DNA from: Candidatus Aegiribacteria sp.
GTDB lineage: Bacteria; Fermentibacterota; Fermentibacteria; Fermentibacterales; JCC-6
Direction of reading: 5' to 3'
Assembly: GCA_013138965.1 (NCBI GenBank)
Contig: WTBT01000012.1
Coordinates: 3,497-67,496 of the forward strand
Length of the DNA: 64,000 nucleotides
A program made the translations under genes and the position numbers. Of this stretch, positions 2,890-43,542 are shown piece by piece; the first letter of the stretch is position 1; the number at the start of each line of letters is the position of its first letter. Below the pieces are notes generated by a model. That model was given only the letters and a program-made list of their open reading frames with translations. It made no database searches and was not told the origin of the DNA.

Positions 2890-3160
2890 GCCGGCTGTGC
2901 TAGGCGGGGAGCTAGCGGTGCCCTGTACCCGCAATCCGCTACAGCGGGGCTGAAACATCTGTGCGGCAATGCGTAGCGAGTTTGCATTTATGTAAGTGGT
3001 GTTGATGACCAGGACCTGTGCGGCGTCAGCCCGTGAACCCCGTCAGAACCGGAAGGTAGCAGCGGTAAGCGATGTCTGGCGGGCGATGCAGGCCAACCTG
3101 ATCTGAGCTGGCTGCAGATTGCATCTCGTGAGGCTTGTCCAGCAGATATGTACGGCCGGC
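2890..3160 (+). ncRNA. ffs: Signal recognition particle RNA, long (Bacillus-type, Alu-domain-containing) form
   Basis: The 5' part (GGCTGTGCTAGGCGGGGAGCTAGCGGTGCCCTGTACCCGCAATCCGCT) nearly matches the B. subtilis scRNA Alu domain. The domain IV motif GTCAGAACCGGAAGGTAGCAGC matches the GGUCCGGAAGGAAGCAGC consensus. The 5' end CCGGCTGT pairs with the 3' end ACGGCCGG. The location immediately upstream of dnaX-ybaB-recR is the conserved one. Confidence 0.75.
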
Positions 3161-17762: not shown

Positions 17763-18991
17763 GCATTCTGGCCATAATCTTCGGGCTTGGTTTGATAGTG
17801 TTGTTTCACGAGATGGGACATCTTCTCATGTCCAAGGCTCTCGGCCTGGAAGTCCCGCGTTTTTCCATAGGGTTTCCTCCACATATTTTCAAAAGAAAAA
17901 TTGGCAGGACGGAGTACTGCATAGGACTGATACCCCTCGGAGGATACTGCAGAGTTAATCTTGGCACCACGGGCGAACCGGTTACGGGTGTCTCATGGTT
18001 CAGGCGAGTTCTTGTGGCTCTTGCCGGTCCCTTCGCCAACCTTGTACTCACAACGCTTATACTTATAACCATATTCGGTATTGTAGGTTGGGATATAGAT
18101 ATTGCTCCCGCGGTTGCGGGCAATGCTGACAACTCCCTCGGCCTGGGAGTGGGAGATACTGTTCTTTCCGTAAACGGTTATCCCGTCGCGGACTATTATG
18201 AGATGCTGGGCGCGATGTATTCCGCTACTCCTGGAACAATGACCGTGGGGACAGCTTCTGGAATACTTGAGATGAGTTACTCCCTGCCTGTGGAAACTGT
18301 TCCTTTTCATGCCCTGATACCTGTGGTGATAGGCGAAGCCATGATAGGATTTCCGGCTTACGAATCCGGGATAAGAGCCGGGGACAGCATAATTGCCATC
18401 GATGGAAGACCTGTTGCCATATGGTTTGATTTTCAATCTTTAGTAGCAGCAGGTACTAAAGAACTAGCAATTGAATTCTACAGAAACGGTGTTATTGATA
18501 CGGCTTATGTAACCCCCGGGGAGTACGACGGCAAAATTCTGACAGGTGTTACCGTTCAACTGCCATCGGAGAGGGTCAGGCTTCCGTTTTTCAAAGCCAT
18601 AGTTGAGGGAGTCAGATCCGCTGGTGAGGGTACTGCATACGTATGTACAACGCTGTTCAGGCTGTTCAAAAAACCCGCGGAGCTGGCCGAGAGTTCGGGA
18701 GGTCCCATTTATGTGGCCGAAACCCTGGGGCAACAGGCCAGATCGGGATTACCCAGTTACCTGTATACTATCGCAAGCATATCCATGGCGATAATGATTT
18801 TCAATCTTCTTCCGATACCGGTCCTTGACGGGGGACATGTTGTCATCCTTGTCATAGAGGGTATCAGGGGAAAACCCATTTCCAAGAAGAATGTTCAGAT
18901 AATCCAGCAGACCGGCATGATAATCATCCTGCTGATCTTCCTCCTGATAGTCTTCAAGGACATTTCCAGAGTAATAACCCGCGTACGATAG
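17756..18991 (+). CDS. rseP: Site-2 protease RseP (zinc metalloprotease of regulated intramembrane proteolysis)
   Basis: HEMGHLLMSK (HExxH) in the first TM, PDZ domain(s), and the LDG motif (NLLPIPVLDGGH) in the distal TM. It lies downstream of uppS-cdsA as in the conserved operon. Confidence 0.85.
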   Translation: MLSILAIIFGLGLIVLFHEMGHLLMSKALGLEVPRFSIGFPPHIFKRKIGRTEYCIGLIPLGGYCRVNLGTTGEPVTGVSWFRRVLVALAGPFANLVLTTLILITIFGIVGWDIDIAPAVAGNADNSLGLGVGDTVLSVNGYPVADYYEMLGAMYSATPGTMTVGTASGILEMSYSLPVETVPFHALIPVVIGEAMIGFPAYESGIRAGDSIIAIDGRPVAIWFDFQSLVAAGTKELAIEFYRNGVIDTAYVTPGEYDGKILTGVTVQLPSERVRLPFFKAIVEGVRSAGEGTAYVCTTLFRLFKKPAELAESSGGPIYVAETLGQQARSGLPSYLYTIASISMAIMIFNLLPIPVLDGGHVVILVIEGIRGKPISKKNVQIIQQTGMIIILLIFLLIVFKDISRVITRVR

Positions 18992-19021
18992 GGTCAGGTC
19001 TTGCATTTGAGCATTATTATC
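18991..19021 (+). repeat. Dispersed repeat copy (GGGTCAGGTCTTGCATTTGAGCATT + ATTATC), abutting the rseP TAG stop
   Basis: The 31-nt string is identical to 38127-38157. The first G is the last base of the TAG stop codon. Confidence 0.8.
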
Positions 19022-19034
19022 AATTTATTTACCT

Positions 19035-19352
19035 TTATGGTTGGCAGGCTGGAGATGGAGGTTCAAGAATTGCGATGGTGTCGGCTATGCAGCTGTAAAG
19101 GTAAGCCCATGCTTCCGGATTTGATTCGCATGATTGTATAAGAGAGAGTAATTCAGTGTCCTCCGGCTTTTCCGGACGAAGGCTGTCAGCTGGCGGCAGA
19201 ACCCAGTGCCTCGCGAGGATTCCTGCCCATTCCCGGAGTTCACTCTTCATATTATCTGAAATACCACTGTAGGAATCGGGTTCATTACAGGATGTCAGAG
19301 TAATAATAAGAGAAATCATCAACGGGATTATGGCAATTGTATATATTCGCAT
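19035..19352 (-). CDS. Hypothetical small lipoprotein
   Basis: 105 aa. Signal peptide plus lipobox (MRIYTIAIIPLMISLIITLTSC). It lies antisense between rseP and the Omp85-family gene. Confidence 0.4.
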   Translation of the reverse strand: MRIYTIAIIPLMISLIITLTSCNEPDSYSGISDNMKSELREWAGILARHWVLPPADSLRPEKPEDTELLSLIQSCESNPEAWAYLYSCIADTIAILEPPSPACQP

Positions 19353-29181: not shown

Positions 29182-30003
29182 ATGCTAGATAATGCTCAAA
29201 TGCAAGACCTGGCCCTACTGGTTCGATTGGATGTGATCGAGATGATACGAGCTGCGGGAAGCGGCCATCCCGGCGGTTCGTTTTCATCGGTAGAGATTCT
29301 TGTGGAGCTTTACTGGAATGTGATGAATATTCGCCCTGAGGAACCTCGCTGGGAAGGGAGAGACAGATTCATTCTCTCCAAGGGTCACGCATGTCCCGCA
29401 TTGTACTCGGTTCTTGCCAGAAGGGGGTATTTCGATCCAACTGAACTTATGACTCTTAGAAAACTTGGATCCAGGCTTCAGGGGCATCCGAACATGCACG
29501 ATCTTCCCGGTCTGGATGCCTCCACTGGAAGCCTTGGACAGGGTCTCTCCATCGCGTGCGGAATTGCCCACGGAATAAGGCTGGATGACAGGAAAAGCCG
29601 TGTTTTCTGCCTGCTTGGTGATGGAGAGCTGCAGGAGGGAAGCATATGGGAAGCGGCAATGACCGCCTCCCATTACAATCTGAAACATCTTACAGCTATC
29701 GTGGACCGGAACCGCGTGCAGCTGGATGGACCGGTTTCGGAAGTAATGGAGATAGAACCTCTTGTTGACAAATGGCTCGCTTTCGGATGGGACGTGATAG
29801 TTGCCGAGGGACACAGTATCCCGTCTCTTGAAAAGGCTTTTGAGCACTGCGGAGAAGCCCCCTTCCCATCGGTTATCATCGCTGATACGGTGAAGGGAAA
29901 AGGTGTTTCATTCATGGAGAACACATGCCTCTGGCATGGCAGATGTCCGGATGAAGATGAATACGCGGCAGCTGTCAGAGAGATTCGGGAAGGCCTTTCA
30001 TGA
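29182..30003 (+). CDS. Transketolase, N-terminal (TPP-binding) subunit
   Basis: AGSGHPGGSFS, the TPP-binding GDGE motif (LLGDGELQEGSIWEA), 273 aa. A GAGG RBS lies 7 nt before the ATG at 29182. The alternative ATG at 29197 is inside the repeat. Confidence 0.85.
   Translation: MLDNAQMQDLALLVRLDVIEMIRAAGSGHPGGSFSSVEILVELYWNVMNIRPEEPRWEGRDRFILSKGHACPALYSVLARRGYFDPTELMTLRKLGSRLQGHPNMHDLPGLDASTGSLGQGLSIACGIAHGIRLDDRKSRVFCLLGDGELQEGSIWEAAMTASHYNLKHLTAIVDRNRVQLDGPVSEVMEIEPLVDKWLAFGWDVIVAEGHSIPSLEKAFEHCGEAPFPSVIIADTVKGKGVSFMENTCLWHGRCPDEDEYAAAVREIREGLS
29191..29215 (-). repeat. Dispersed repeat copy, reverse orientation (GGGCCAGGTCTTGCATTTGAGCATT, 1 mismatch), lying within codons 4-11 of the transketolase N-subunit ORF
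   Basis: Reverse complement of AATGCTCAAATGCAAGACCTGGCCC. It supplies the in-frame peptide NAQMQDLA. Confidence 0.75.
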
Positions 30004-35566: not shown

Positions 35567-35573
35567 CATGAAA

Positions 35574-35701
35574 GGGTCAGGTCTTGCATTCGAGCGTTTG
35601 AAATTGAAACAAAAGTGACAATGTGAAGGGGTCAGGTCTTGCATTCGAGCATTTGAAATTGAAACAAAAGTGACTAATGCTCAAATGCAAGACCTGACCC
35701 C
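35574..35701 (+). repeat. Composite repeat. Two direct units (GGGTCAGGTCTTGCATTCGAGCRTT + TGAAATTGAAACAAAAGTGAC) are followed by an inverted copy. This forms a 26-bp stem (1 mismatch) with a 22-nt loop.
   Basis: Direct units start at 35574 and 35628. The inverted arm is at 35676-35701 (AATGCTCAAATGCAAGACCTGACCCC). It is followed by the short repeats CCACTCATG / CCACTCGTG / CCACTCATG. Confidence 0.8.
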
Positions 35702-35791
35702 ACTCATGTGACCCCACTCGTGACCCCCACTCATGCCCCCATTTCACAGCTTGACCTTTTGAATCTGTTTTCGTAAATTGGCTCGAACGGT

Positions 35792-35867
<76 letters not shown>

Positions 35868-37115: not shown

Positions 37116-37558
37116 ATATAGTTACAATGAAGAAGAGCGATTATGAAGAGTTGCTGGCGTTGTGGAGCGGCTTTACCGGTAATACCATGACCGGTGCCGA
37201 CAGCAGGGGGGATTTTGAGAAGTTTCTGAGCAGGAACTCTGATTACTGTTTTTCAGCATTTGAAAATGCTCGTCTTGTCGGATCTGTAATGGCCGGTAAC
37301 GATTCAAGAAGAGGATATATCTACCATCTGGCAGTGGATAACTCACTTCAGGCGAAAGGAACAGGCAGGAAGCTCATGGATGCCGCTGAAAATGCGTTGA
37401 GAGATGCCGGGATAGAGAAAGCCCACCTGTTCATATACACTGATAATACCGCGATAAAGTTCTACGAAAAAACCGGCTGGCACAGTCGCAGCGATATAAC
37501 GGTTATGAGCAAGGTGCTGATAGGGGATAAATACGTGGGCACCCGCATGGAGGAGTGA
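37112..37558 (+). CDS. GNAT family N-acetyltransferase
   Basis: Acetyl-CoA binding motif (LAVDNSLQAKGTGRKLM). 148 aa. It overlaps the GT4 stop. Confidence 0.7.
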   Translation: MNIVTMKKSDYEELLALWSGFTGNTMTGADSRGDFEKFLSRNSDYCFSAFENARLVGSVMAGNDSRRGYIYHLAVDNSLQAKGTGRKLMDAAENALRDAGIEKAHLFIYTDNTAIKFYEKTGWHSRSDITVMSKVLIGDKYVGTRMEE

Positions 37559-37659
37559 TGAACTTCCTTTTTTGTTTTCCAGCTGGCATGATAAGCCATT
37601 GAAGTATTATCCTCAGAACAATTGATGTAGAAACCGAGGGATAATGGTTTCTGGAGGGG

Positions 37660-38127
37660 TTGGCTGATTTGCCTGATCTCCTGGTCCCGTTGTACGATCT
37701 GCCCGGTAACCCGGAACAGGATGGTCTGTGGGTGGGAAAACCGCTCTCTCACCAAGCGCCCTCCGTGCTTTCATTCATCCATGACAATTTCAGCAGCGGC
37801 TGGAAGGCTGAAGCCGGGGCCGCCTTTGGATCCGTGCCACCCACAATAATCGTTGCCGCAGATTGCGCATCCGGCAGACTCGCCGGTTTCTGCTGCTGGG
37901 ACTGTACTGCAAAGGGGTTTCTGGGACCAATAGGTGTGCACGATGACTTTCGCGGAAAAGGTGTCGGAAAAGCTGTTGTGATCGCAGCGCTTCACAGTAT
38001 GAGGGAGGCTGGTTACGGTTACGCTGTAATAGGTGCCGCGGGACCTGTTGAATTCTTCCGGAGGATATGCGACGCCAGAGTCATTGAAGACAGTACCCCG
38101 GGAATATACGGCAACCCAATAAAGTAG
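37660..38127 (+). CDS. GNAT family N-acetyltransferase
   Basis: GVHDDFRGKGVGKAVVIAAL motif A. 155 aa. Its TAG stop is fused to a repeat copy. Confidence 0.6.
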   Translation: MADLPDLLVPLYDLPGNPEQDGLWVGKPLSHQAPSVLSFIHDNFSSGWKAEAGAAFGSVPPTIIVAADCASGRLAGFCCWDCTAKGFLGPIGVHDDFRGKGVGKAVVIAALHSMREAGYGYAVIGAAGPVEFFRRICDARVIEDSTPGIYGNPIK

Positions 38128-38157
38128 GGTCAGGTCTTGCATTTGAGCATTATTATC
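38127..38157 (+). repeat. Dispersed repeat copy (identical 31-mer to 18991-19021), abutting the GNAT gene TAG stop
   Basis: GGGTCAGGTCTTGCATTTGAGCATTATTATC, followed by a low-GC stretch of about 150 nt. Confidence 0.8.
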
Positions 38158-42116: not shown

Positions 42117-43542
42117 ATTGTTGATCAGGGGATGGGGTTTCTTCAGCTGTCCCGGAAGGTTCACTGCTTTCTATATCTCCGGAAGATTCGGTGCTGTCCA
42201 CATTTACAACGGCGGTGGTATCTTCGGTAACACTGGTTCCGGGCGGGTTTTCCGGGACGGCTTCAATGCCTCCGGAAGATTCGGTGCTGTCCACATTTAC
42301 AACGGCGGTGGTGTCCTCGGTAACGCTGGTTCCGGGCGGATTTCCCGGAACAGCTTCAATGCCTCCGGAAGATTCGGTGCTGTCCATATTTACAACGGCG
42401 GTGGTATCTTCGGTAACGCTGCTCACGGGGGGTTCCTGAACAGTTTCATCAGCGGGGGGAGGTGCCGTTTCCGGCAGACTCTCCTCTGGTGTCGGCAGGA
42501 TCAGCGAATCCACTTCAATAAAGTCATCTATCCCCATCGAATCGGCTGTTGAAAGCGAATCCACCGGCGCGGTGATCGAATCGGAGACTACGATACTCAG
42601 GTCTGGTGATACCGAATCCGGCAGAAGAACAACTGAATCCTGCGCTACGGTATCCTCATCAGCAGGTATTGTCTCTTCTGTAATTGTGACCGGTATAGAA
42701 TCAGCGAAAGTGGAATCCTGCTCAACCATTAGATCCTCCATTGTGACCGAAAGGTCTTCCTCAAGTATCAGAATGGAATGATCCGGATCAAGTCTTCTTA
42801 TTTGTTCCAGCTCGAGGAGCAGGTCCTCTTCCATTTCGTTTCTGTAGTAAAGGCTTGCCAGCCTTACATGGTATTCAAGACTGTTCGGATACATCGCCTT
42901 CATTTCCAGATACGAGGCAAGAAGCTCTCTTTCTTTTTCAGGCAGGCTGTGAACTGAAGAGATCCTTCCCCCTGATCTGACCACTGAGAGTTTTGATGGA
43001 ACAAGGATAATTACAGCTGTAACCATCAGGGAAACCATGGTGTACGAGATCACTTTCATCAGAGCTTTTCTCCTGCTCCGGAATATCTCCTCATCAGGCC
43101 TGGGGTCCATATCGGCATCCAGGGGTACTATCCTTGTGCCTGAGATCATCTGCAGAATTGTCTTCCCTGTTCGAGGTACCGGAACCAGTCCGGCACACAG
43201 AAGGAGCATAAGGGGAGGAGTCATCAGAAGTCTTCTCAGAGTCTGCCACTCTGAAGGTCTGAAGCCGTTCAGACTGATTTCGGCAAGGCCGAATGCCTCA
43301 AGGGGACACTGTCCCCTGCTTCCTGTCCGAGAGCGTTCCAGCCATGCCAGCATGGTTACGGCAAGAAAGTAACTGAGAGGCAGGAGGATAAACCAGTTCC
43401 CTGAAATAAAGTTGAAAACAGTATCCAGAAGGAGTGTCCAGGAAAGAATTACTGCGAGTTCGAGAAGATAGAATCCGGCCAGATGCCTTACCTTGGGTGA
43501 TATTCTGTTAAGAAAAGCATGTTTTCTGGCGGTGACAGTCAT
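42097..43542 (-). CDS. Hypothetical membrane protein (RDD-like N-terminal TM region) with C-terminal Thr/Ser/Glu-rich tandem 31-aa repeats
   Basis: 481 aa. N-terminal TM helices. The C-terminus carries about 2.8 copies of a 31-aa repeat (TEDTTAVVNVDSTESSGGIEAVPENPPGTSV) encoded by 93-nt DNA repeats. Confidence 0.45.
   Translation of the reverse strand: MTVTARKHAFLNRISPKVRHLAGFYLLELAVILSWTLLLDTVFNFISGNWFILLPLSYFLAVTMLAWLERSRTGSRGQCPLEAFGLAEISLNGFRPSEWQTLRRLLMTPPLMLLLCAGLVPVPRTGKTILQMISGTRIVPLDADMDPRPDEEIFRSRRKALMKVISYTMVSLMVTAVIILVPSKLSVVRSGGRISSVHSLPEKERELLASYLEMKAMYPNSLEYHVRLASLYYRNEMEEDLLLELEQIRRLDPDHSILILEEDLSVTMEDLMVEQDSTFADSIPVTITEETIPADEDTVAQDSVVLLPDSVSPDLSIVVSDSITAPVDSLSTADSMGIDDFIEVDSLILPTPEESLPETAPPPADETVQEPPVSSVTEDTTAVVNMDSTESSGGIEAVPGNPPGTSVTEDTTAVVNVDSTESSGGIEAVPENPPGTSVTEDTTAVVNVDSTESSGDIESSEPSGTAEETPSPDQQYEPEGT
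42178..42456 (-). repeat. 93-nt tandem repeat, about 3 units, in frame within the preceding CDS
   Basis: Units start at about 42178, 42271 and 42364 on the + strand (TCCGGAAGATTCGGTGCTGTCCACATTTACAACGGCGGTGGT...) and are over 90% identical. Confidence 0.8.

What the first reader, a model, noticed from the sequence alone, without database searches (positions are those of the whole stretch)
18991..19021. Dispersed 25-31 nt repeat family GGGTCAGGTCTTGCATT[T/C]GAGCATT(ATTATC), six copies in 64 kb, two fused to TAG stop codons
Copies are at 18991(+), 29191(-), 35574(+), 35628(+), 35676(-) and 38127(+). The copies after rseP and after the second GNAT gene are identical 31-mers in which the stop codon's G is the first base of the repeat. 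The same element therefore recurs exactly at gene 3' ends, as expected for REP/MITE-like elements or for a recognition site of an RNA- or DNA-binding factor. The reverse complement begins with ATG CAA GAC CTG (MQDLT), which creates spurious ORFs on the opposite strand.
Basis: seen in the sequence. Interest (0 to 1): 0.55.

Follow-up and report, generated by a model that had tools for sequence, protein, structure and literature searches.

The report
Scattered ends of a RAYT-like transposon
The six repeats are scattered copies of the terminal inverted repeat that, in related genomes, brackets a RAYT-like HUH tyrosine transposase gene (a "TIRYT"), so this is a new member of a known but little-studied class of bacterial repeats rather than a new kind of element.

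Summary
There are six copies of (A/G)GGGTCAGGTCTTGCATT[T/C]GAGCA at the stated coordinates, where about 0.65 matches are expected by chance. Two copies are identical 31-mers fused to TAG stop codons.

The element is not a palindromic REP. It is the terminal inverted repeat (TIR) of a "TIRtron". In four related Ca. Aegiribacteria species, and also in Thermoleophilaceae, a Phycisphaerales MAG and a Legionella plasmid, two inverted copies bracket one gene. That gene encodes a 270-290-aa Y1/HUH transposase with a C-terminal HTH. This is the TIRYT type (TnpA_Y1 subclass 2.1, Bertels Group 1 RAYT). The published TIR start, GGGGWSAS, fits this repeat.

No such gene lies in the 64-kb window.

- Syntenic relatives lack the TIR at two of the four window sites, so the copies are lineage-specific insertions.
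- Inverted pairs carry no target-site duplication.
- TIR positions 1-14 are nearly invariant in 34 TIRtrons whose proteins share about 40% identity.
- TIR positions 12-17 look like the -35 box of a leaderless promoter for the transposase gene.
- Copies sit at gene termini. They donate a stop codon (TAG or TGA) or, at the transketolase gene, an ATG and the N-terminal residues.

Verdict: new member of a known kind, moderate interest.

The parts
18989..19022 (+). Solo TIR copy. Its outer end TAGGGTCAGG overlaps the TAG stop of the rseP-like gene. The inner part ..GAGCATTATTATCA matches the promoter-side TIR of Aegiribacteria TIRtrons.
   Evidence: A Logan contig carrying this rseP ends 27 nt after the stop, inside the repeat. 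Relatives carry other sequence at this site.
29182..29217 (-). Solo TIR copy with one core mismatch (GGGCCAGG), overlapping the 5' end of the transketolase N-subunit gene. The internal ATG at 29200-29202 and the codons for QMQDLAL come from the TIR.
   Evidence: (I1, I2). The N-termini MQDLAL/MQDLTL are shared by relatives of at least 83% identity. L139 has a decayed copy, 4 mismatches in 23.
35569..35678 (+). Two tandem 55-nt units. Each is a TIR copy (35574-35598 and 35628-35653) plus a 29-nt spacer.
   Evidence: D4; period 55, 2.0 copies, 94% matches.
35676..35701 (-). Inverted TIR copy. It pairs with 35628-35653 to form a hairpin or dimer with a 25-bp stem and a 22-nt loop (a REPIN-like doublet).
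   Evidence: I7; DNA fold -27.1 kcal/mol, z -8.9; RNA fold z -6.35.
35695..35741 (-). Tandem array of 12-14-nt units. On the minus strand it reads GGGGTCA + c(at)gagt, that is, the first 7 nt of the TIR plus local flank, repeated about 3.4 times just outside the TIR's outer end.
   Evidence: The same kind of array lies outside TIR copies in many other loci.
38125..38157 (+). Solo TIR copy. Its outer end overlaps the TAG stop of the second GNAT gene. It is the start of a segment of about 150 nt that is absent from the syntenic relative L139.
   Evidence: (D7).

Best explanation
The six copies are dispersed copies of the terminal inverted repeat of a TIRtron. Three stand alone, and three form one cluster: a hairpin doublet with one arm tandemly duplicated.

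A TIRtron is one gene for a RAYT-like HUH/Y1 'tyrosine transposase' with a C-terminal helix-turn-helix (a TIRYT), bracketed by two inverted copies of this sequence with the GGGG ends facing outward.

Proposed mechanism:
- The TIRYT, encoded elsewhere in this Ca. Aegiribacteria genome, recognises the invariant outer part GGGGTCAGGTCTTG. Recognition probably uses its conserved HTH on duplex DNA, and its HUH/Tyr centre on single strands or on the hairpin that an inverted pair can form.
- It then copies or moves TIR units in trans, without target-site duplication, as RAYTs are thought to do for REP/REPINs.
- Copies survive mainly at gene termini. There the TIR is harmless because it brings its own stop codon (TAG at the outer end, TGA inside) or start codon (ATG CAA GAC CTG).
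- Within the TIRtron, TIR positions 12-17 (TTGCAT/TTGAAA) also serve as the -35 box of a promoter that yields a leaderless TIRYT mRNA.

Shown here: the repeat family, its bracketing of TIRYT genes in several phyla, lineage-specific presence at two sites, the absence of target-site duplications, and the fusion to gene ends.

Inferred: that a TIRYT exists in this genome, that it catalyses the spread, and the promoter role.
For: Bracketing from the DNA side: a genome-wide scan with the 21-mer gave 50 loci. In seven of them the repeat brackets, in inverted orientation, an ORF of 269-309 aa. These are L017, L047, L014 and L027 (Aegiribacteria), L016 and L022 (Thermoleophilaceae) and L039 (Phycisphaerales).

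Protein family:
- Pfam Y1_Tnp 5.5e-13, plus a C-terminal HTH_23 match just under its cut-off (24.2 vs 24.6 bits).
- NCBIfam REP_Tyr_transpos 77.6 bits, cut-off 80.
- Invariant N-H-x-H and R-Y-x-x-L-N-P.
- A profile search of the PDB gives 4ER8 TnpAREP as best hit, E 0.0038, with both motifs aligned.

Bracketing from the protein side: of 82 TIRYT loci with enough upstream sequence, 73 carry GGGTCAGGTCT (at most 2 mismatches) within 160 nt upstream. Forty of these lie 44-46 nt before the ATG, and many also carry an inverted copy just 3' of the gene.

One genome with both parts: the MAG GCA_030613065.1 holds a TIRtron (L132) and solo copies on three other contigs (L005, L025, L030).

Other records: a Legionella adelaidensis plasmid has the same arrangement.

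Literature: TIRYT/TIRtron with TIRs starting GGGGWSAS and dispersed solo, dimer or cluster TIR families (PMC3733652). Subclass 2.1 has NH[YF]H, Y[IV]xLNP and HTH_23/28/Bac_DnaA_C tails (PMC6006769).

Mobility: syntenic relatives L139 and L141 lack the TIR at the 35574 cluster, where a plain GC-rich hairpin sits instead. L139 also lacks it at 38127.

No target-site duplication was found in 87 inverted pairs that could be scored.

Assembly behaviour: short-read contigs break inside the repeat.

Promoter: a TAnnnT signal lies at -12..-7 from the ATG (T 24/34, A 27/34, T 27/34), 17 nt after TIR positions 12-17, with no Shine-Dalgarno signal.
Against: - No TIRYT gene is in the window (tblastn; a family HMM against all six frames, best E 0.14). 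I could not reach the rest of this MAG, so the cognate enzyme of this genome is unproven.
- No TIRYT has been tested biochemically. Catalysis of TIR spread is an analogy with TnpAREP.
- Single TIRs cannot form the hairpin that Y1 enzymes normally need, so it is unclear how solo copies arise.
- The simple consensus scan calls no promoter or terminator at the solo copies.
- At the rseP and transketolase sites the relatives are not clean empty sites (note 6). Part of the apparent polymorphism there may be differential decay of old copies.
Confidence: 0.8

Rival explanations
1. A canonical REP/REPIN family served by a canonical RAYT. Each unit would be an imperfect palindrome with a GTAG-type foot, cleaved as a hairpin by a TnpAREP-like enzyme.
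For: The associated protein is a remote RAYT relative. The 35628/35676 doublet looks like a REPIN. The copies lie mostly just after genes, as REPs do (PMC3733652).
Against: Single units have no self-complementarity (z -0.45; 59 of 200 shuffles fold as well) and no GT[AG]G. The protein scores below the NCBIfam REP_Tyr_transpos cut-off. It carries the HTH tail typical of subclass 2.1, for which Quentin et al. found no REPs.
Confidence: 0.08
2. A host regulatory or punctuation signal that is conserved because the cell uses it, not because it is mobile. Candidates are a promoter -35 module, a transcription terminator or RNA-stabilising stem, or a binding site for a host protein.
For: TIR positions 12-17 act as a -35-like box in TIRtrons. 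At 35574-35748 the TIR cluster occupies the place where relatives have a GC-rich terminator-like hairpin. The RNA fold is strong.
Against: The same sequence occurs in genomes of 44-74% GC in several phyla, always linked to one transposase-like gene. Presence differs between close relatives. Solo copies are not called as promoters or terminators. There is no Rfam family at the sites. A secondary, co-opted role of this kind is not excluded.
Confidence: 0.07
3. A MITE: an internally deleted derivative of a classical DDE-transposase insertion sequence with these TIRs.
For: Inverted pairs with short, variable interiors resemble MITEs.
Against: No target-site duplication (longest shared flank word 3.26 against 3.18 in the control). 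The interiors of pairs are unrelated to one another even within one genome. The only gene ever found between the TIRs is a Y1/HUH gene.
Confidence: 0.03
4. A local duplication or a chance similarity confined to this region.
For: None beyond the clustering of three copies at 35574-35701.
Against: The shuffle test; 50 loci in other genomes; 73 of 82 TIRYT loci carry the repeat.
Confidence: 0.01

Closest known systems
TIRtrons / TIRYT (TIR-associated tyrosine transposases; Di Nocera, De Gregorio & Rocco 2013, BMC Genomics 14:522). These correspond to TnpA_Y1 subclass 2.1 (Quentin et al. 2018) and Group 1 RAYTs (Bertels et al. 2017).
   Same: A Y1/HUH gene with NH[YF]H and Y[IV]xLNP motifs and a C-terminal HTH. 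It is bracketed by long TIRs that begin GGGGWSAS (here GGGGTCAG). TIR copies are dispersed as singles, dimers and clusters. The gene is low-copy or single-copy and keeps its position between related species.
   Different: This is a new host lineage (Ca. Aegiribacteria, Fermentibacterota) with a high local density (6 copies in 64 kb). Four features are not mentioned in the three papers read: 14 nt of the TIR are nearly invariant across phyla; the -35 box and leaderless start lie inside or next to the TIR; copies fuse to stop and start codons; and (flank+GGGGTCA)n arrays lie outside the TIR.
REP/REPIN-RAYT systems (E. coli TnpAREP/yafM, PDB 4ER8; Pseudomonas REPINs).
   Same: A domesticated-looking Y1 transposase flanked by inverted copies of a short repeat that is scattered through intergenic DNA, mostly after genes. 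Doublets form long hairpins. There is no target-site duplication.
   Different: REP units are themselves palindromic with a GT[AG]G foot and differ between species. The units here are non-palindromic, about 24-34 nt long, and their outer half is the same across phyla. The enzyme has an extra HTH domain.
IS200/IS605 family (IS608, ISDra2 TnpA).
   Same: The HUH/Y1 catalytic core. Presumably an ssDNA mechanism without target-site duplication.
   Different: IS200/IS605 elements have sub-terminal hairpins and no TIRs, occur as several near-identical full copies, and often carry tnpB. In the genomes sampled here the gene was seen only once each, and only its TIRs are multiplied.
MITEs such as Correia elements of Neisseria.
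   Same: Short TIR-bounded units near gene ends that can carry promoter or terminator parts and alter neighbouring gene ends.
   Different: MITEs have conserved interiors and target-site duplications and depend on DDE transposases. None of these three features was found here.

Membership tests
TIRtron / TIRYT TIR family | The repeat brackets, in inverted orientation, a gene for a Y1/HUH transposase. | tested here: met
   Seven genome loci, L132 and L134, and a Legionella plasmid. 73 of 82 TIRYT loci have the repeat upstream. This was tested in relatives, not in the window's own genome.
TIRtron / TIRYT TIR family | The TIR starts with GGGGWSAS (Di Nocera 2013). | tested here: met
   GGGGTCAG or AGGGTCAG in all copies. 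Positions 2-4 are invariant and positions 5-14 are 85-100% conserved in 34 TIRtrons.
TIRtron / TIRYT TIR family | The protein has subclass 2.1 signatures: NH[YF]H, Y[IV]xLNP, and a C-terminal HTH_23/HTH_28/Bac_DnaA_C-like domain. | tested here: met
   NHYH/NHFH and RY[IV]xLNP are invariant. HTH_23 E 2.9e-5, just under the Pfam cut-off. The C-terminus matches HTH regulators in the PDB profile search.
TIRtron / TIRYT TIR family | A cognate TIRYT gene is present in the same genome as the dispersed copies. | tested here: inconclusive
   Absent from the 64-kb window. Present together with solo copies in the related MAG GCA_030613065.1. The rest of the window's MAG could not be read.
Canonical REP (RAYT-associated) | Each unit is an imperfect palindrome of 20-40 nt. 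| tested here: not met
   Single units fold at -0.9 kcal/mol, z -0.45.
Canonical REP (RAYT-associated) | A conserved GT[AG]G tetranucleotide sits at the foot of the hairpin. | tested here: not met
   No GTAG or GTGG at either end of the unit.
Canonical REP (RAYT-associated) | The associated protein passes the REP-associated tyrosine transposase model (NCBIfam NF047646). | tested here: not met
   77.6 bits against a cut-off of 80: a near miss, so a remote relative.
MITE | Target-site duplication flanking the TIR pair. | tested here: not met
   87 pairs: mean longest shared word 3.26 against 3.18 for mismatched flanks.
MITE | A conserved interior derived from a parent IS. | tested here: not met
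   The spacers of pairs differ in sequence and length (10-60 nt) within one genome.
IS200/IS605 insertion sequence | Several near-identical full-length copies with sub-terminal hairpins and no TIR. | tested here: not met
   The gene keeps the same neighbour in related species (L017, L047, L014 and L027 share the upstream znuB-like gene; L132 and L134 share theirs; L016 and L022 share theirs). TIRs are present. Copy number per complete genome was not tested.
Known RNA family (Rfam) | A match to a curated covariance model at the repeat. | tested here: not met
   Only SRP RNA and two tRNAs reach the gathering score in the window.

The most novel reading that the evidence does not exclude
The TIR may be more than transposase debris. 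It could be a compact, cross-phylum 'gene-end cassette'. Its outer 14 nt would be the fixed recognition site of a conserved HTH-Y1 enzyme. Its sequence carries a stop codon at the outer edge, an internal TGA, an ATG on the other strand and a -35 box, so it can be written onto the very end or start of genes without harm. It might then be co-opted as terminator stems, promoter halves or new protein termini.

The (flank+GGGGTCA)n arrays, and the resemblance of some unoccupied sites to the TIR end, would then record a so far undescribed Y1 reaction. In that reaction the enzyme cuts 7 nt inside the TIR and is guided to targets that resemble its own end.
Probability: 0.15. Interest if true: 0.65.

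Novelty: new member of a known kind. Interest (0 to 1): 0.4.

Why it matters
TIRYTs (Group 1 RAYTs, subclass 2.1) are among the largest groups of Y1 transposase relatives. This search alone found 4,820 clusters at E<=1e-20. In the papers I read, no TIRYT enzyme has been tested on its TIR, and one survey reported no associated repeats for the subclass.

The window gives a clean case in an uncultured phylum, and it suggests experiments:
- A fixed 14-nt sequence (GGGGTCAGGTCTTG) could be tested for binding and cleavage.
- The predicted leaderless promoter inside the TIR could be tested.
- The window shows natural examples of repeats rewriting gene ends: the rseP and GNAT stop codons and the transketolase N-terminus.

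For annotation there are three practical points. These repeats create spurious 'MQDLT...' ORFs, shift called gene ends (...RVRSCI*) and break short-read assemblies.

Tried and rejected
- I looked for the transposase in the window by tblastn and with a family HMM against all six frames. Nothing was found.
- I tried to find the window's own TIRYT through close homologues and their contigs. None came from the sample that holds the window's rseP (SRR10375098), and the NCBI contig of the window is not indexed.
- I tested whether the 35574 cluster is a TIRtron that lost its gene, by comparing with L132 and L134. There is no synteny, so the idea was dropped.
- I tested for target-site duplications. 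None were found.
- I tested whether single units fold. They do not.
- I scanned the solo copies for promoters and terminators. No calls were made at them.
- I searched the literature for the sequence itself. Only unrelated donkey casein primers turned up.
- A single-sequence PDB search gave no hit. Only the profile search found TnpAREP.
- The Paucibacter hits (L028, L031) lie inside a conserved coding region and were treated as chance matches. About 2 such matches are expected for a 21-mer in 596 Gb.
- I considered Tn3-family IRs (which start GGGG), integron attC sites, dif/Xer sites, CRISPR repeats, uptake sequences and sequencing adapters from memory. I rejected them on sequence or architecture. 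They were not tested against databases.
Full report
**1. Observation**

The pattern GGTCAGGTCTTGCATT occurs at 18992+, 35575+, 35630+, 35684- and 38128+ without mismatch, and at 29199- with one mismatch. Shuffles give 0.65 matches on average, even with three mismatches allowed. The aligned copies share an invariant core, GGG(T/C)CAGGTCTTGCATT[T/C]GAGC(A/G)TT.

The copies at 18991 and 38127 are identical over 31 nt, or 33 nt with the preceding TA. Each overlaps the TAG stop of the upstream ORF. Those ORFs are an M50/PDZ protease (rseP-like) and a GNAT acetyltransferase.

The copy at 29191(-) overlaps the start of the transketolase N-subunit gene.

The region 35569-35701 holds two tandem 55-nt units (TIR plus spacer) and then an inverted copy. 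Together these make a hairpin with a 25-bp stem: DNA -27.1 kcal/mol, z -8.9. A 12-14-nt tandem array follows at 35695-35741, and then tRNA-Phe at 35792-35867. Single copies have no structure of their own.

**2. The repeat is not confined to the window**

A scan of one genome per species with GGTCAGGTCTTGCATTYGAGC returned 50 loci. They come from Ca. Aegiribacteria/Fermentibacteria, Thermoleophilaceae, Gaiellaceae, Phycisphaerales, Binatia, and several Alpha-, Beta- and Gammaproteobacteria including the isolate Imhoffiella purpurea. Their G+C content runs from 44 to 74%.

Copies occur singly or as inverted pairs with the GGGG ends outward. The spacers of pairs are 10-60 nt long and unrelated to one another. 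Two Paucibacter hits lie inside a conserved coding region and are probably chance.

**3. What the repeat belongs to**

In L017 and L047 two inverted copies 956 nt apart enclose a 284-aa ORF. Evidence on that protein:
- Pfam Y1_Tnp (5.5e-13) plus a C-terminal HTH.
- NCBIfam REP-associated tyrosine transposase at 77.6 bits, just under the cut-off of 80.
- Homologues lie next to the repeat in L014 and L027 (92-94% identity), and in L039, L016 and L022 (34-36% identity). In all seven loci the gene is bracketed by inverted copies.
- The HUH motif (N-H-Y/F-H) and R-Y-x-x-L-N-P are invariant.
- A profile of the family finds E. coli TnpAREP (4ER8) as the best solved structure, E 0.0038, with both motifs aligned.

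The family is large: 4,820 clusters at E<=1e-20. Members are named 'transposase' or 'REP element-mobilizing transposase RayT'.

**4. The test from the protein side**

Eighty metagenomic loci were chosen only for encoding a relative of this protein (37-53% identity). With the genome loci, 82 had enough upstream sequence to examine. Of these, 73 carry GGGTCAGGTCT (at most 2 mismatches) within 160 nt upstream, and 40 carry it 44-46 nt before the ATG. Many also carry an inverted copy just after the gene. The inner part of the TIR is the same at both ends of one locus but differs between loci.

In 34 non-redundant TIRtrons, positions 1-14 (GGGGTCAGGTCTTG) are nearly invariant and positions 15-24 are variable.

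A complete plasmid of Legionella adelaidensis carries a 38%-identical gene annotated 'transposase', bracketed by AGGGTCAGGCCTTGCCTTTTG.

**5. Comparison with the literature**

Di Nocera et al. (PMC3733652) described RAYT-like genes flanked by long TIRs instead of REPs. They named these 'TIRtrons' and 'TIRYT'. The TIRs share the motif GGGGWSAS, and moderately abundant TIR families occur as singles, dimers or clusters.

Quentin et al. (PMC6006769) place most TIRYTs in TnpA_Y1 subclass 2.1 (Bertels' Group 1 RAYT). That subclass has NH[YF]H and Y[IV]xLNP motifs and C-terminal HTH_23/HTH_28/Bac_DnaA_C-like domains, and no REPs were found for it.

Bertels et al. (PMC5581495) report that Group 1 is the widest-spread group and that its flanking 16-mers are only modestly repeated.

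The present element meets each of these features (see the membership table). It fails the features of canonical REPs, MITEs and IS200/IS605 elements.

**6. Evidence of mobility, and its limits**

The window is from a Ca. Aegiribacteria MAG. Its rseP is 100% identical to an NCBI protein of that name, and its transketolase is 81% identical to that of strain MLS_C. Two syntenic relatives were fetched, L139 and L141.

- **Between the 209-aa ORF and tRNA-Phe:** both relatives have a plain GC-rich hairpin where the window has the TIR cluster. The flanks align on both sides.
- **After the second GNAT gene:** L139 has 29 nt where the window has about 150 nt beginning with the TIR. The last two codons of the gene also differ.
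- **At the transketolase start:** relatives of at least 83% identity share the TIR-encoded MQDLAL/MQDLTL. L139 keeps a copy with 4 mismatches in 23. This copy is therefore old and inherited.
- **After rseP:** every relative has something different. L144 has an inverted pair of a variant TIR. L145 has a 14/17 remnant of a reverse-oriented TIR end. L141 has no TIR, but its rseP ends in AGG GTC AGG TAA, which equals TIR positions 1-10. The C-terminus ..TRVR is native to the protein family.

No target-site duplication flanks the 87 pairs or TIRtrons that could be scored. That fits an HUH/Y1 mechanism and argues against a DDE-type MITE.

Short-read contigs end inside the repeat. Contigs that carry the gene are only 954-1222 nt long, cut at both TIRs.

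One MAG, GCA_030613065.1, holds both a TIRtron (L132) and solo copies on three other contigs.

**7. Relation to genes**

Eighty copies in the genome loci and the window were examined.
- 35 have a same-strand frame of at least 100 codons ending within 30 nt of the outer end. Random positions give 12.5%.
- Two arrangements recur. In six copies a TAG overlaps the first TIR bases. In eight copies the frame reads through to the TIR's internal TGA, giving the C-terminus ...RVRSCI*.
- Palindromy often extends one to four bases beyond GGGG. In Aegiribacteria it reads TA-GGG...CCC-TA, so the TAG is part of the TIR there.
- On the other strand the TIR reads ATG CAA GAC CTG. This is used at 29200 in the window, and apparently in L002 and L048.

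In all four window sites the outer (GGGG) end of the TIR faces the coding sequence.

**8. A promoter inside the TIR (inference)**

In the 34 aligned TIRtrons, a TAnnnT signal lies at -12 to -7 from the ATG (T 24/34, A 27/34, T 27/34). It sits exactly 17 nt after TIR positions 12-17 (TTGCAT, TTGCAA or TTGAAA). There is no information content between it and the ATG, and no Shine-Dalgarno signal.

This predicts a leaderless mRNA that starts at the ATG. It also explains part of the conservation of the TIR. The solo copies in the window keep the -35 part, but the consensus scan does not call them as promoters.

**9. Unexplained**

Outside the GGGG end of many copies lie short arrays whose unit is 5-10 nt of local flank plus GGGGTCA. 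Examples are (AGGAGAACTGGGGTCA)x4 in L112 and 35695-35741 in the window.
- 35 of 168 copies have an extra same-orientation GGGTCA/GGGGTC within 60 nt outside the TIR.
- None has it in the reverse orientation.
- 12 have it on the inner side.

These arrays, together with the TIR-like sequences at unoccupied sites, hint at cleavage about 7 nt inside the TIR or at targeting by similarity to the TIR end. I could not decide between these.

**10. Verdict**

Precisely, it is a TIR family of a TIRYT/TIRtron, which is a known but barely studied kind, here in a new lineage and at high local density.

Interest is moderate. The class is published. Four points may be new and testable: the cross-phylum invariance of 14 nt, the TIR-embedded leaderless promoter, the donation of stop and start codons, and the flank arrays.

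Noticed in passing
window 35695-35741; also L112 3130-3190, L021 470-528, L039, L073, L055, L078, L098, L025, L045: Tandem arrays lie just outside the TIR's GGGG end. Each unit is 5-10 nt of local flank plus GGGGTCA. 35 of 168 copies have such an extra motif outside the TIR, and none has it in reverse orientation. This is not described in the TIRYT papers read.
   Followed up: partly
L017 2359-2405 and 33 other TIRtrons (listed): TIR positions 12-17 (TTGCAT/TTGAAA), a 17-nt spacer and a TAnnnT at -12..-7 from the ATG, with no Shine-Dalgarno signal. This predicts a leaderless TIRYT mRNA from a promoter partly inside the TIR.
   Followed up: partly
L144 1838-1925 (GCA_030592645.1, just after rseP): A second, related TIR family, TGGGGTCGTATCTTGAATTTTGGCATT, forms an inverted pair with a 21-nt loop at the same site where the window has its solo TIR. 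A GACCCCA partial repeat follows it.
   Followed up: no
L141 245-256 and 10010-10030 (Ca. Aegiribacteria sp. MLS_C): Sites that lack the TIR nevertheless resemble its outer end. rseP ends in AGG GTC AGG TAA, which equals TIR positions 1-10. The transketolase start has GACATGGCCC where the window copy has GACCTGGCCC. This may be target mimicry or old decay.
   Followed up: partly
L141 20213-20355: A 27-bp inverted repeat, AGGGACGGACCTGATTTCATCAAGTTA, with a loop of about 85 nt lies between the convergent GNAT and Wzi genes, at the site where the window has a solo TIR. Its nature is unknown.
   Followed up: no
L147 (IMG/VR UViG_3300029286_003067, 7.4 kb): Twelve copies of GGGGTCAGGTCTTG.. lie in 7.4 kb, as inverted pairs 54 nt apart (start to start) made of two sub-variants. 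This REPIN-like population is much denser than in the window. The contig is labelled viral, which may be wrong.
   Followed up: no
window 37558-37660, against L139 18288-19454 and L141 18604-19761: Both syntenic relatives have a DUF6754 gene (385-388 aa) between the two GNAT genes. The window has only about 100 nt there. L141 also lacks the transaldolase gene that precedes transketolase in the window and in L139.
   Followed up: no
window 2895-3155, 1879-1951, 35792-35867: Large-type bacterial SRP RNA (161.7 bits), a tRNA, and tRNA-Phe(GAA). The tRNA-Phe lies directly after the TIR cluster.
   Followed up: no
window 42169-42447 and 900-1232: Three tandem 93-nt units (77-100% identical) and a set of 33-36-nt GAA/CCG-rich repeats. 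Both probably encode repeat domains or acidic Glu/Pro-rich linkers.
   Followed up: no
window 19035-19352 (-): A 105-aa ORF with no Pfam match lies between the solo TIR and the Omp85 gene. It is also called at the same place in L141, L142 and L145 (93-115 aa), so it may be a real small gene.
   Followed up: no
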